From: Escherichia phage PBM-1
Sequence record: PV029540
DNA length: 64,000 nucleotides
Direction: 5' to 3' (one strand)
Shown here: one piece after another, positions 57 through 2,707 of the stretch
Numbering within the stretch: the first letter of the stretch is position 1
Layout: each line of letters starts with the position of its first letter
Made by a program: the position numbers and the translations under genes
The notes under the pieces: generated by a model
Told to the model about the DNA's origin: nothing
What the model saw: only the letters and a program-made list of their open reading frames with translations
The model's database searches: none

Positions 57-265
57 AACCATGTAACCTTTAAACAATATTCTTCTACGTGTTGTTTACG
101 ACCTTTCTTATCAATAAAGGTATATTCAACGAATGTTCCAATATAGTCTTTATCTACACCATGTGGACTATTAATTGGGCATTTAGTACGGCAAATGCGT
201 TCCCATTGACGAATAATTTCCACTTTGTTTTTAGGATCAAACGGATGCGGGTAATGTACTTTCAT
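53..265 (-). CDS. hypothetical protein (70 aa)
   Basis: ORF in the co-directional early gene chain; overlaps neighbour stop. Confidence 0.45.
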   Translation of the reverse strand: MKVHYPHPFDPKNKVEIIRQWERICRTKCPINSPHGVDKDYIGTFVEYTFIDKKGRKQHVEEYCLKVTWL

Positions 266-716
266 AATCCACCACTATTAAATCAATATCAGGAGTAAAC
301 ATGTCGATTAATTTAGAAACCTTATCCCAATCGCCGCCAGCAATACCGCAACCTATACGTGGAATGTAAATTACTGGTTTAAACAAAAGGGTTTCTGCCT
401 GTAGATTTAATTCTATCATGCAGTTTACTAAAGCACCATAATCAAGATTAGGACCCGGTTCGTATTGCGTATACAGGTTATAGCATATACCAAATCCCGT
501 AGGACTATGTTTAAAAACAATAGACATATCGCCTAATTTATCACGAGAACCGTACTCGGTAGTGGTTTTATCTATTTCTAAAATTTTGGGATAGGCTCTT
601 GCTAATTGACCCGCTACGCCAGAGCCCATTGTGTGGAAGCAATTGCACCCGTGCGCAATAATATTACCTTGAAGAAATAGGGCGACAATATCGCCCTTGA
701 TATATTTTACAATCAT
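237..716 (-). CDS. macro-domain-like protein (putative ADP-ribose binding/processing)
   Basis: 159 aa; N-terminal GDI..AHGCNC..GSGVAGQ and C-terminal IPRIGCGIAGGDW motifs resemble the two glycine-rich macro-domain motifs (compare E. coli YmdB); by-eye call. Confidence 0.55.
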   Translation of the reverse strand: MIVKYIKGDIVALFLQGNIIAHGCNCFHTMGSGVAGQLARAYPKILEIDKTTTEYGSRDKLGDMSIVFKHSPTGFGICYNLYTQYEPGPNLDYGALVNCMIELNLQAETLLFKPVIYIPRIGCGIAGGDWDKVSKLIDMFTPDIDLIVVDYESTLPASV

Positions 717-1060
717 CTAGTACTCAATCCTCGATTATAAGAATCTACTAAACGGTCAACCATTGAATGACAAGCGGCTTTATCTTTCTCCTCCGCAACT
801 GAACATTCTAAGGTATTCCACTTTTTAGCATATCGTTTTAACAATGTATCATTTTTGTATCTGCTTGATTTATCTCTTTCTCCGTCTTTATATGCATATA
901 TTAATTTCTGCGCAAATTCAGCTTGGCATGCTTTATTTTTCCCACAATAATCCGCGGCAGTACGGTTTACATACTCTCTAATTTCAGTATATGATGTATC
1001 TGCTAACGCAGAAGCAGAAAATGAAATTAATCCTATACATAAAACCAAAATTTTAGTCAT
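713..1060 (-). CDS. predicted secreted/periplasmic protein
   Basis: 115 aa; hydrophobic N-terminus MTKILVLCIGLISFSASALA looks like a cleavable signal peptide; 4 Cys in mature part. Confidence 0.55.
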   Translation of the reverse strand: MTKILVLCIGLISFSASALADTSYTEIREYVNRTAADYCGKNKACQAEFAQKLIYAYKDGERDKSSRYKNDTLLKRYAKKWNTLECSVAEEKDKAACHSMVDRLVDSYNRGLSTR

Positions 1061-1598
1061 TTACTATTTCCAAAAGTTTATTATTTTTAAGGTAATTAGC
1101 CTTTTCTAGGACTTCAGAAGCATATTTAGAACCTGCTTTAACATTCCATCCCGAATTATAAGAGGATATCGCCTTTCTTATATCGCCCTTATGTATATTT
1201 AACCAATAAGAAAGTTCAATGTACGCCCAGGAAGCTGAATTGGACCGTTTATTCAACATTCTTTTTATTTCAGCATCGGTCATATTATAACCAAGTTCCT
1301 TAACTCTTGCTCGCATAGTAGGCAAATAATTTTGGAACATTCCATAGGCATGATGCTTTGGTTTAGATTTTAAATTAACTCCGGCAGAGCTTTCTTGCCA
1401 CAAAATAGCAGCCATTATATGACCCAATCCGCTCTTATGGATGTTTTTGTGTGTTTTATATTTTCCATCCTTAGAAAATTGTTCCCCGAATTGATATGCG
1501 TAGCGCATGTTATCGAGTTGGACATTACTGAAAGTATGCTCGGAGCTATGCGCCATCATTGAAATGGCCAATAGACCAGCGAGTAGTGCTTTTCTCAT
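1053..1598 (-). CDS. predicted periplasmic lytic transglycosylase-like protein
   Basis: 181 aa; signal-peptide-like N-terminus MRKALLAGLLAISMMAHS; SLT-like motifs ILWQESS and YGMFQ. Confidence 0.55.
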   Translation of the reverse strand: MRKALLAGLLAISMMAHSSEHTFSNVQLDNMRYAYQFGEQFSKDGKYKTHKNIHKSGLGHIMAAILWQESSAGVNLKSKPKHHAYGMFQNYLPTMRARVKELGYNMTDAEIKRMLNKRSNSASWAYIELSYWLNIHKGDIRKAISSYNSGWNVKAGSKYASEVLEKANYLKNNKLLEIVND

Positions 1599-1605
1599 GC
1601 TTACC

Positions 1606-2067
1606 TCATTGAGTTTTAATTACTGCTTTAGAAGCCTTTCCTGGTAAACGACGACTGTTAATAATTGCCATCCTACATTGAAGTGACGGGTCTTTGAACT
1701 TCGCATTAGGTTTACAAACTGTAAATCCAAGCCAAAGATTTCCATCTGTGATTTCTAAACGTCCAGGACGGTATTCAACCCCATCAATAAAATCCTCATC
1801 AATGTCAGGACGCGGAGGCATACTCAGGAATTCATTAACTTCTAAAACATGGTCTTTTATTTTGTGGAATAATTCAAAAACATATGTCTCATCAATCTCC
1901 CGTTGAATTGCACGATCAAGAAGATGTTGAGAATATTTTAGATGAAACGATGAGACCCCTGCTGCTTTTGATGCCTCACGAATCTCATTGTTAATTTGAC
2001 GAAACTCCGACTCAAAGTGACGACGAAGCTTATTTCGACGGATAAAAACTTCTGTGTTGATAGTCAT
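1606..2067 (-). CDS. regB: RegB sequence-specific endoribonuclease
   Basis: 153 aa, near-identical to remembered T4 RegB (MTINTEVFIRRNKLRRHFESEFRQ...). Confidence 0.9.
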   Translation of the reverse strand: MTINTEVFIRRNKLRRHFESEFRQINNEIREASKAAGVSSFHLKYSQHLLDRAIQREIDETYVFELFHKIKDHVLEVNEFLSMPPRPDIDEDFIDGVEYRPGRLEITDGNLWLGFTVCKPNAKFKDPSLQCRMAIINSRRLPGKASKAVIKTQ

Positions 2068-2126
2068 GTTATTCTCCTCTTAACTGATAGAAAAATTATA
2101 CCACAGTCAAGAGGAAAAGTAAACAG

Positions 2127-2405
2127 TTATTCTTTAAATCTAATCAATTTATTCATAGACTTTGAAACTTCTGCACGGACCTCATGTAAGTTTTTAAGCT
2201 GTTCAAGACGCTGCTCATAGTAAGCAATTTCATCTTCTTCGAGACAGTCCTGTGAATCTTCTTTAAGATAACGTGCATAGTCCTGGAAAGCTTTACGGAC
2301 TACTTCTTGGAAGTCATCAAGACTTTGAATTTTCTTAGGAGCAACAGATACACGACGAGGGGCAGTATAATACTCATAACCAAACCCTGCGCTTAATTGA
2401 GCCAT
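2127..2405 (-). CDS. hypothetical protein (92 aa from second Met)
   Basis: ORF 2127-2447; internal ATG at 2405 overlaps upstream stop (TAATG coupling). Confidence 0.5.
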
Positions 2406-2707
2406 TAATATTTTTCCTCTGGTTGGAACACAGCACGACAAGCCCACATACTAGCTTCTTTGAGTTTCGTTTTAGCAATAGTTAACTGATCGAGGCTTTC
2501 AGCATAATTCTTTGCGAATTCGTAGTCTTCACAATTATCTAGTGCTTCCCAGAATTCATCATATAAAGCGTCAAAGATAAGTCCTAAACGAACTTCAGCG
2601 TCTTTGATAGCATTCACTTTATCGATTTTCTCTTCAGTGTGCGGCTTATAACCTTTAATATCTTCAATCATATTTGACTTCCTCGCCCGTTCCCAAATCA
2701 TATTCAA
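2405..2707 (-). CDS. hypothetical protein (100 aa)
   Basis: ORF in co-directional early chain. Confidence 0.5.

What the first reader, a model, noticed from the sequence alone, without database searches (positions are those of the whole stretch)
713..1598. Two adjacent early genes encoding signal-peptide proteins, one lytic-transglycosylase-like
Both ORFs start with classic signal-peptide-like N-termini, so the products are probably exported to the periplasm soon after infection. One has SLT-like catalytic motifs; the other is a small Cys-containing protein. Periplasmic early proteins in T-even phages include superinfection-exclusion factors such as Spackle, which inhibits the gp5 lysozyme, so this pair may act on the cell wall or on incoming phage.
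Basis: inference. Interest (0 to 1): 0.45.

Follow-up and report, generated by a model that had tools for sequence, protein, structure and literature searches.

The report
T4 vs.1–vs exported cell-wall gene pair
The two ORFs are the long-known phage T4 genes vs.1 (a lytic-transglycosylase-like cell-wall enzyme) and vs (annotated as a modifier of the host's valyl-tRNA synthetase). Both carry secretion signals and stay together as a pair across T4-like phages, which fits poorly with the cytoplasmic job in the vs annotation.

Summary
Window 1053-1598(-) and 713-1060(-) are T4 vs.1 and vs (180/181 and 114/115 residues identical to T4). Both start with a classic tripartite Sec signal peptide.

**Vs.1:** it has the GH23/SLT motifs (invariant E69-S70, GMFQ, YNxG, Y159). 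Its confident model matches only lysozyme-fold lytic transglycosylases. That SLT similarity was already published in 2006.

**Vs:** it is annotated everywhere as the binder of cytoplasmic valyl-tRNA synthetase. The mature protein is a four-helix bundle with four invariant cysteines and no detectable relatives.

**New here:**
- In 49 of 50 loci from diverse T4-like phages, a Vs-family gene follows vs.1 within -8 to +3 nt. 47 are intact, each with a signal peptide and four cysteines; five loci carry a lipoprotein box.
- In published T4 transposon data, vs and vs.1 mutants share a fitness defect that neighbouring genes lack.

**Best reading:** an early, co-translated, periplasmic lytic transglycosylase plus partner module that acts on host murein.

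There is no evidence for a Spackle-like exclusion role. The conflict with the valyl-tRNA synthetase annotation is unresolved and can be tested. The genes are known; their function is not. Interest is moderate.

The parts
1053..1598 (-). vs.1 coding sequence (181 aa): predicted periplasmic GH23/SLT lytic transglycosylase
   Evidence: ORF. It is 180/181 identical to T4 Vs.1. Pfam SLT E 4.8e-5, above the gathering score; phrog_600 E 5.6e-69. AF2 pLDDT 88. Foldseek PDB hits are MltD, G-type lysozyme, GH23 chitinase, Slt70-type enzymes, phi6 P5 and T7 gp16.
1545..1598 (-). Vs.1 signal peptide, residues 1-18 (MRKALLAGLLAISMMAHS | SEH)
   Evidence: n/h/c layout and a -3/-1 site. Low pLDDT. The same layout with different sequence is seen in all homologues examined.
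1380..1400 (-). Catalytic motif W67-Q-E69-S-S-A-G73 of Vs.1 (Glu-Ser of family-1 lytic transglycosylases)
   Evidence: W67, E69 and G73 are invariant, and S70, S71 and A72 nearly so, in 26 homologues of 41-83% identity.
1604..1607 (-). GAGG Shine-Dalgarno of vs.1, overlapping the regB stop codon
   Evidence: The junction reads AATGAGGTAAGCATG.
1053..1060 (-). 8-nt overlap between the vs.1 stop and the vs start (ATGACTAA); probable translational coupling
   Evidence: In 50 related loci the gap is always -16 to +3 nt. No stable RNA structure forms at the junction (z 0.62).
713..1060 (-). vs coding sequence (115 aa): exported four-helix, four-Cys protein, annotated as valyl-tRNA synthetase modifier
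   Evidence: It is 114/115 identical to T4 Vs. phrog_1256 E 1.6e-39. AF2 pLDDT 84, with helices 22-39, 43-63, 70-86 and 91-112.
1001..1060 (-). Vs signal peptide, residues 1-20 (MTKILVLCIGLISFSASALA | DTS)
   Evidence: pLDDT < 50. Among near-identical Tequatrovirus copies the only variation is in this segment (SVLA / SALA / SASALA / SASASA). Five related loci have a lipobox LSGC here. No in-frame alternative start exists before M100.
770..946 (-). Codons of the four invariant cysteines of mature Vs (C39 944-946, C45 926-928, C86 803-805, C97 770-772)
   Evidence: Invariant in alignment A1. Present as exactly four Cys in 47 of 50 downstream proteins. They sit at the two helix-turn-helix junctions of the model; the disulfide pairing is inferred.
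713..716 (-). ATGA overlap between the vs stop and the tk.4 (adfM) start
2095..2123 (-). Sigma70-like promoter upstream of regB (TTTACT-17-TATAAT, TG extension); probable early promoter for regB-vs.1-vs
   Evidence: Consensus scan only. No MotA-box promoter lies between it and vs.

Best explanation
vs.1 and vs form a co-transcribed, translationally coupled two-gene module. Both products are exported by the Sec pathway into the periplasm of the infected cell soon after infection.

Mature Vs.1 (163 aa, 18.8 kDa) is a single-domain GH23 lytic transglycosylase. It cleaves the glycan strands of host murein using Glu69.

Mature Vs (95 aa, 11.0 kDa) is a four-helix bundle, probably stapled by two disulfides. 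It is the dedicated periplasmic partner of Vs.1 and targets or restrains the enzyme. In some phages Vs is tethered as a lipoprotein.

Together they condition the sacculus in a way that raises phage yield, most visibly in slow-growing cells.

- Shown: gene identity, motifs, fold, signal-peptide architecture, pair conservation.
- Taken from published data: the shared mutant fitness defect.
- Inferred: export, enzymatic activity, physical partnership, physiological purpose.
For: **Identity.** The proteins are 99% identical to T4 Vs.1 and Vs.

**Export.**
- Tripartite signal peptides.
- These are the only two of 85 window ORFs that pass a crude signal-peptide rule.
- The signal-peptide character is conserved while its sequence diverges.
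- Five Vs-family proteins have a lipobox (LSGC) instead.
- Four Cys are invariant in the mature part of Vs only.
- His-tagged full-length 'Valyl' was insoluble when expressed in the E. coli cytoplasm (PMC8076793).

**Enzyme.**
- Pfam SLT scores above its gathering threshold.
- E69-S70, GMFQ, YNxG and Y159 are invariant.
- The model has pLDDT 88 and matches only GH23 enzymes.
- No second invariant acidic residue of the G-type-lysozyme kind is present.

**Pairing.**
- In 49 of 50 IMG/VR loci encoding a Vs.1 relative (31-100% identity), the next ORF is a Vs-family protein (HMM E 1e-61 to 4e-4) with a gap of -8 to +3 nt. 47 are intact.
- The same arrangement holds in Acinetobacter phage AC4.
- Vs diverges faster than Vs.1 (mean pairwise identity 41% against 66%) but keeps its position, signal peptide and Cys pattern.

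**Phenotype** (HIDEN-SEQ Extended Data Table 6, bioRxiv 10.1101/2025.11.20.689424).
- Mean insertion counts in the liquid LB control are 26.6 for vs and 22.6 for vs.1. Immediate neighbours range from 179 to 767.
- In M9-glucose, vs falls by log2FC -2.19 (adjusted p 0) and vs.1 by -0.87 (p 0.0055).
- On the clinical strain CFE299, vs.1 falls by -1.20 (adjusted p 0.015).
- A vs knock-out has a plaque defect on M9-glucose.
Against: - No dedicated signal-peptide predictor, localisation data or enzyme assay was available.
- The Foldseek E-values for Vs.1 are weak (about 0.01, TM about 0.5), so it is a divergent GH23 member.
- Nothing tested here shows that Vs and Vs.1 touch each other. Both mature proteins are basic (pI 8.9 and 9.65).
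- The vs.1 transposon phenotype could be polar on the translationally coupled vs.
- Outside Straboviridae, and in Aeromonas phage AS-gz, the SLT gene occurs without Vs, so the enzyme does not strictly need a partner.
- Classical genetics and biochemistry attribute a cytoplasmic function, binding valyl-tRNA synthetase, to the vs locus.
Confidence: 0.5

Rival explanations
1. The annotation is right. Vs is the cytoplasmic tau peptide that binds and stabilises host valyl-tRNA synthetase. Its adjacency to an exported SLT protein is only operon packing, and the hydrophobic N-terminus is not an efficient export signal.
For: Every annotated record and PHROG call it the valyl-tRNA synthetase modifier. 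UniProt-derived text quoted in PMC8076793 says it binds the host valyl-tRNA ligase. The vs knock-out is defective in minimal medium, where translation capacity could matter. From memory, tau was purified at about 10 kDa, and vs mutants interact genetically with valS(ts) hosts in vivo.
Against: The signal peptide is conserved in type across 47 of 47 intact family members, and five loci carry a lipoprotein box, which cannot be reconciled with a cytoplasmic protein. Four invariant Cys suit the oxidising periplasm. The gene is welded to an exported enzyme in 49 of 50 loci. The 11.0-kDa size that fits tau is that of the cleaved, hence exported, form; the precursor is 13.1 kDa. vs.1 mutants share the fitness defect. 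I could not find how the ORF was tied to the genetic vs locus.
Confidence: 0.3
2. This is a Spackle-like superinfection-exclusion or lysis-from-without device. Vs would inhibit the tail lysozyme of incoming phages, and Vs.1 would assist.
For: Vs is a small, helical, Cys-containing, early, periplasmic protein, in broad outline like Spackle.
Against: Vs has no sequence or fold match to any solved or predicted viral structure outside its own family. T4 already has sp. In HIDEN-SEQ, sp and imm insertions are neutral where vs and vs.1 insertions are depleted. The conserved partner of Vs is a GH23 enzyme of the phage itself.
Confidence: 0.07
3. This is an enzyme-inhibitor (effector-immunity type) pair. 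Vs only neutralises Vs.1 until lysis, and Vs.1 is an accessory lysis enzyme with no early role.
For: The gene order of enzyme followed by a small periplasmic or lipoprotein gene mirrors murein-hydrolase effector/immunity pairs (recalled from memory). Vs evolves faster than Vs.1. In M9-glucose, vs insertions are more depleted than vs.1 insertions (5.0 against 11.9), as expected if unrestrained Vs.1 is harmful.
Against: vs.1 insertions are themselves about 10-fold depleted relative to neighbours in LB. This would not be expected if removing the enzyme, or both genes by polarity, were harmless. T4 already has endolysin e, a holin and spanins. No inhibitor-family signature was found.
Confidence: 0.13

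Closest known systems
Family-1 (GH23, Pfam SLT PF01464) lytic transglycosylases such as Slt70, MltD and MltC/E, and the related phage domains (T7 gp16, phi6 P5)
   Same: Same catalytic Glu-Ser, GxxQ and YNxG motifs and the same lysozyme-like fold. These are the only structural matches.
   Different: Vs.1 is a minimal 163-aa mature protein with a conserved about 40-residue N-terminal extension. It is a soluble periplasmic protein, not a lipoprotein, a virion protein or a multidomain enzyme. The similarity is remote (about 15% identity, TM about 0.5).
'Specialised' small secreted lytic transglycosylases of secretion systems and plasmids (EtgA, IpgF/IagB, VirB1, P19). This comparison is recalled from memory and was not tested here.
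   Same: A signal peptide plus a single SLT domain of about 150-200 aa. Activity is locally controlled by a partner protein, as EscI controls EtgA.
   Different: No trans-envelope machine is known to be built early in T4 infection. The partner here is an orphan four-helix, four-Cys protein.
T4 tau factor / Vs 'valyl-tRNA synthetase modifier' (the database annotation)
   Same: It is the same ORF, 114/115 identical. The mature mass of 11.0 kDa is close to the about 10 kDa recalled for tau.
   Different: The predicted localisation (periplasm, or lipoprotein in some homologues), the disulfide-type cysteines and the obligatory linkage to an exported enzyme do not fit a cytoplasmic synthetase-binding protein.
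T4 Spackle (gp61.3), a periplasmic inhibitor of the gp5 lysozyme
   Same: An early, small, helical, signal-peptide-bearing periplasmic phage protein.
   Different: No detectable sequence or structural similarity. The mutant behaviour in HIDEN-SEQ differs.
Periplasmic lysozyme or lytic-transglycosylase inhibitors (Ivy, MliC/PliC, PliG, LprI/DUF1311)
   Same: Small periplasmic or lipoprotein products with conserved cysteines that bind murein hydrolases.

Membership tests
GH23 / Pfam SLT family-1 lytic transglycosylase (Vs.1) | Profile match above the curated threshold | tested here: met
   PF01464 scores 23.4 bits against a cut-off of 21.3, E 4.8e-5, residues 61-154.
GH23 / Pfam SLT family-1 lytic transglycosylase (Vs.1) | Catalytic Glu followed by Ser, plus GxxQ, (A/S)YNxG and a downstream Tyr motif | tested here: met
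   E69 is invariant and S70 nearly so; G86, F88, Q89, Y147, N148, G150 and Y159 are invariant in 26 homologues.
GH23 / Pfam SLT family-1 lytic transglycosylase (Vs.1) | Lysozyme-like alpha-helical fold | tested here: met
   The AF2 model has pLDDT 88. The top Foldseek PDB hits are all GH23 (MltD, G-type lysozyme, GH23 chitinase, Slt), with probability 0.98-1.0 but E about 0.01 and TM 0.42-0.53.
GH23 / Pfam SLT family-1 lytic transglycosylase (Vs.1) | Non-hydrolytic cleavage of murein giving 1,6-anhydroMurNAc | not testable with these tools
   This needs an enzyme assay. The absence of a second invariant acidic residue near E69 favours a transglycosylase over a G-type lysozyme.
Sec/SPase I secreted proteins (both products) | Positive n-region, 7-15 residue h-region, c-region with small residues at -3/-1 | tested here: met
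   Vs: K3, residues 4-14, ALA|D. Vs.1: R2 K3, residues 4-16, AHS|S. These are the only 2 of 85 window ORFs that pass a crude rule.
Sec/SPase I secreted proteins (both products) | The signal is conserved in kind, not in sequence, among homologues | tested here: met
   Five Vs-family loci instead have a lipobox, LSGC.
Sec/SPase I secreted proteins (both products) | Prediction by a trained tool (SignalP), and experimental cleavage or export | not testable with these tools
   No such tool is available here, and no localisation data were found in the literature searches.
T4 Vs valyl-tRNA synthetase modifier (tau) | Orthology with the T4 ORF named vs | tested here: met
   114/115 identical to AAD42671.1. 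phrog_1256 E 1.6e-39.
T4 Vs valyl-tRNA synthetase modifier (tau) | Resides in the cytoplasm, where valyl-tRNA synthetase is | tested here: not met
   This rests on prediction only: a conserved cleavable signal peptide or lipobox, four invariant Cys, and coupling to an exported enzyme.
T4 Vs valyl-tRNA synthetase modifier (tau) | Binds ValRS and alters its stability or tRNA affinity | not testable with these tools
   This needs biochemistry. The primary papers were not held.
Spackle-type inhibitor of phage tail lysozyme | Sequence or fold similarity to T4 Spackle | tested here: not met
Ivy / MliC-PliC / PliG / LprI (DUF1311) lysozyme inhibitors | Match to the family profile | tested here: not met
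   An hmmscan against Pfam at E <= 10 for T4-type Vs and 10 divergent Vs-family proteins found none of these families.
SAR (signal-anchor-release) endolysin | An uncleaved, weakly hydrophobic N-terminal transmembrane domain of about 16-20+ residues | tested here: not met
   The Vs.1 h-region is 13 residues and is followed by an A-x-S/A-x-A type cleavage site. Homologues show classical signal peptides such as MKYLLLILALVASPVWA|Y.

The most novel reading that the evidence does not exclude
The ORF that every T4-like genome labels 'valyl-tRNA synthetase modifier' is not primarily a synthetase modifier. It is the periplasmic (in some phages lipoprotein) partner of the Vs.1 lytic transglycosylase, and the two form a previously undescribed murein-remodelling module conserved across Straboviridae. 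On this reading the classical tau-ValRS complex either comes from a different gene or forms when the basic 11-kDa mature protein meets ValRS after cell breakage.
Probability: 0.35. Interest if true: 0.6.

Novelty: new member of a known kind. Interest (0 to 1): 0.42.

Why it matters
The biological role of the T4 vs gene has been open since the 1960s, and a 2025 preprint that found a minimal-medium phenotype still calls it unknown. If Vs is exported and works with Vs.1, a label propagated into about 800 phage genomes is misleading. A conserved early periplasmic cell-wall module of T4-like phages, one with a measurable fitness effect, would then be open to direct experiment. Early, non-lytic remodelling of host murein by a virulent phage is poorly understood. 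It bears on burst size, lysis timing and phage performance on slow-growing hosts.

Tried and rejected
- **Vs as a remote DUF1311/LprI or other lysozyme-inhibitor relative** (an idea from memory: periplasmic, helical, four Cys): no Pfam match at E <= 10 for 11 family members.
- **SAR-endolysin reading of the Vs.1 N-terminus:** rejected. The h-region is short and a cleavage site follows.
- **RNA structure enforcing translational coupling at the vs.1/vs junction:** none found (z 0.62).
- **MotA-dependent middle promoter in front of vs.1 or vs:** none found.
- **RegB GGAG site at the vs.1 or vs ribosome-binding sites:** absent. GGAG occurs at regB's own Shine-Dalgarno and inside the coding regions.
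- **NCBIfam:** no match for either protein.
- **AFDB50 fold search:** unavailable.
- **Primary literature on how the ORF was assigned to the vs locus, and the T4 genome review:** not held. Searches for functional work on vs.1 returned only Nolan et al. 2006.
- **Profile search of the Vs family against 1.84 billion representatives:** it found only 8 small proteins (6 retrieved, all Vs-like), so no informative distant relatives.
- **Mirror-tree correlation of Vs.1 and Vs** (r 0.69): uninformative without a control.
Full report
**What is there**

The interval 713-1598 holds exactly two minus-strand ORFs, 1053..1598 (181 aa) and 713..1060 (115 aa). The first 2.4 kb of the window is 99.4% identical to Tequatrovirus genomes. 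In records with T4-style annotation the two ORFs are vs.1 and vs, flanked by regB upstream and tk.4 downstream.

Against the T4 reference (AF158101.6) the products are 180/181 and 114/115 identical. So the finding concerns two long-annotated T4 genes.

**Gene organisation**

- The regB stop overlaps the GAGG ribosome-binding site of vs.1.
- The vs.1 stop and the vs start overlap by 8 nt (ATGACTAA).
- The vs stop and the tk.4 start overlap as ATGA.
- The only good sigma70-like promoter on this strand lies upstream of regB (2123-2095; TTTACT-17-TATAAT with TG). No MotA-box promoter lies between it and vs.

Early co-transcription with regB is therefore plausible but inferred. No stable RNA structure forms at the vs.1/vs junction.

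**Signal peptides**

Both proteins begin with a positive n-region, an 11-13 residue hydrophobic core and a small-residue c-region:

- Vs.1: MRK-ALLAGLLAISMMA-AHS|SEH
- Vs: MTK-ILVLCIGLISF-SASALA|DTS

Supporting points:

- A crude rule applied to 85 non-overlapping ORFs of the window selects only these two.
- The N-terminal ~20 residues have low confidence in the AlphaFold2 models, while the rest is above 90.
- In homologues the segment changes sequence freely but keeps its character.
- Among near-identical Tequatrovirus copies of Vs, the only differences lie in the c-region (SVLA, SALA, SASALA, SASASA).
- Vs has no in-frame alternative start before Met100, so the hydrophobic segment is part of the protein.

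SignalP could not be run. Export is a strong prediction, not a demonstration.

**Vs.1**

- Pfam SLT matches above its gathering score.
- In 26 homologues of 41-83% identity the invariant residues include E69 (in WQESSAG), G86/F88/Q89, Y147/N148/G150 and Y159. These are the family-1 lytic transglycosylase motifs. No second conserved acidic residue of the goose-lysozyme type is present.
- The model (pLDDT 88) matches only GH23 enzymes in the PDB: MltD, G-type lysozyme, a GH23 chitinase, Slt70-type enzymes, phi6 P5 and T7 gp16. The scores are weak (E about 0.01, TM about 0.5).
- The N-terminus is too short and too cleavable to be a SAR domain.
- The SLT resemblance of vs.1 was already reported (PMC1524935). 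No functional study turned up.
- Relatives occur in 2084 phage records, including Felixounavirus and Ackermannviridae.

**Vs**

- PHROGs and all annotated records call it the valyl-tRNA synthetase modifier. The local Pfam, NCBIfam and PDB sequence searches give nothing.
- The mature part folds as a four-helix bundle (pLDDT above 90).
- Four invariant cysteines sit at the two helix-turn-helix junctions: C39/C45 and C86/C97. The fifth Cys lies in the signal peptide and is not conserved.
- A profile search of 1.84 billion representatives finds eight small proteins; the six newly retrieved are Vs-like, and two carry a short-type Cys pattern.
- No lysozyme-inhibitor family matches.
- Vs is thus an orphan, phage-restricted fold, and it is not Spackle-like.

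**The pair is conserved**

I collected 50 IMG/VR loci that encode a Vs.1 relative (31-100% identity). In 49 of them the ORF immediately downstream (gap -8 to +3 nt) is a Vs-family protein by HMM:

- 47 are intact: 99-122 aa, with an N-terminal signal and exactly four Cys in the mature part. The Cys fall into two spacing types, C-x5/6-C ... C-x10-C and C-x5/6-C ... C-x8-C. The proteins end in Y-x-x-G-L.
- Two are truncated.
- Five loci (one of them truncated), probably Cronobacter-phage type, replace the cleavage site by a lipobox, LSGC. That is incompatible with a cytoplasmic protein.

Acinetobacter phage AC4 shows the same arrangement. An earlier comparison had noted a barely recognisable 'vs' next to vs.1 in Acinetobacter phages (PMC4177764).

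Vs diverges much faster than Vs.1 (mean pairwise identity 41% against 66%). Outside Straboviridae, and in Aeromonas phage AS-gz, the SLT gene stands alone.

**Published phenotypes**

The HIDEN-SEQ preprint (bioRxiv 10.1101/2025.11.20.689424) reports vs as the most depleted T4 gene in M9-glucose and shows a plaque defect for a vs knock-out. Its Extended Data Table 6 adds more detail:

| Condition | vs | vs.1 | Neighbouring genes |
|---|---|---|---|
| Mean insertions per site, liquid LB control | 26.6 | 22.6 | regB 179; vs.3 652; vs.4 265; tk.4 290; tk.3 767 |
| M9-glucose | 5.0 (log2FC -2.19, adjusted p 0) | 11.9 (log2FC -0.87, p 0.0055, adjusted 0.155) | — |
| Strain CFE299 | log2FC -1.04 (adjusted p 1.0, not significant) | log2FC -1.20 (adjusted p 0.015) | — |

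Insertions in sp and imm are neutral. The two genes therefore share a fitness defect that their neighbours lack.

One caveat applies. vs.1 insertions may abolish translation of the coupled vs. regB insertions, upstream in the same unit, are not depleted.

**Interpretation**

The best-supported model is an early, co-translated, exported module. Vs.1 is a periplasmic lytic transglycosylase acting on host murein. Vs is its disulfide-stabilised partner, which targets or restrains it.

| Sub-claim | My confidence |
|---|---|
| Vs.1 has the GH23 fold | 0.95 |
| Both proteins are exported | 0.8 |
| Vs.1 is enzymatically active | 0.6 |
| The two genes are functionally linked | 0.6 |
| Vs regulates Vs.1 | 0.35 |

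The physiological purpose is conjecture. One possibility is loosening of the sacculus to allow larger yields in small, slow-growing cells.

**The conflict**

The classical vs function, a roughly 10-kDa tau peptide that binds cytoplasmic valyl-tRNA synthetase and has in vivo effects on valS(ts) hosts, is known to me only from annotation, a quoted UniProt line and memory.

- The mass that fits tau is that of the cleaved form (11.0 kDa against 13.1 kDa for the precursor; pI 8.9).
- His-tagged full-length Vs was insoluble in the E. coli cytoplasm.

Three readings remain possible: the ORF was mis-assigned, the complex forms after cell breakage, or a fraction of Vs stays cytoplasmic. This is unresolved, and it is the interesting part of the finding.

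**Verdict**

- The genes and the SLT similarity are already known. The conserved exported pairing, and its clash with the vs annotation, was not described in any paper I could search.
- Interest is moderate.

Noticed in passing
window 237-716 (-): The gene downstream of vs is tk.4, a macro-domain protein (Pfam Macro E 1.3e-7). A 2025 preprint names it AdfM, an anti-DarTG2 factor. Its start overlaps the vs stop (ATGA).
   Followed up: partly
window 2405-2671 (-): vs.4, three genes upstream of vs.1 (beyond regB and vs.3), matches the solved structure 7UQ2 'Vs.4' (E 9.9e-55). From memory this is the anti-CBASS nucleotide sponge Acb2.
   Followed up: partly
window 1606-2067 (-) and 2074-2077: regB (Pfam REGB_T4, E 1.4e-68) has a GGAG, the RegB cleavage motif, in its own Shine-Dalgarno region. 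The ribosome-binding sites of vs.1 and vs lack GGAG.
   Followed up: partly
public records: P0021, P0051, H75, H91; L004 1453-2070: Several database entries label the Vs.1-type SLT protein as 'endoribonuclease', 'RegB' or 'site-specific RNA endonuclease'. This looks like an annotation slip from the neighbouring regB gene.
   Followed up: no
L019 (vB_EcoM_005-like, 85 aa) and L039 (65 aa), ORF downstream of vs.1: Two loci carry truncated Vs genes: an internal deletion that removes the first Cys pair, and a premature stop. Vs is therefore dispensable or decaying in some phages while vs.1 stays intact.
   Followed up: no
L002 2321-2746 (Acinetobacter phage AC4): In AC4 the gene after the Vs homologue also starts with a signal peptide (MKLKAALLSLLLVSPFAAAWEQ). 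This gives three consecutive exported proteins.
   Followed up: no
window 679-697, both strands: A perfect 7-8 bp GC-rich inverted repeat (AGGGCGA..TCGCCCT) lies inside the 5' end of tk.4 and scores as terminator-like on both strands. Its significance is unknown.
   Followed up: no
Homologous-protein output for Vs (P0001-P0013): All Vs homologues carry a precomputed Pfam family, PF26829.1, which is absent from the local Pfam copy. Its name and description could not be checked.
   Followed up: no
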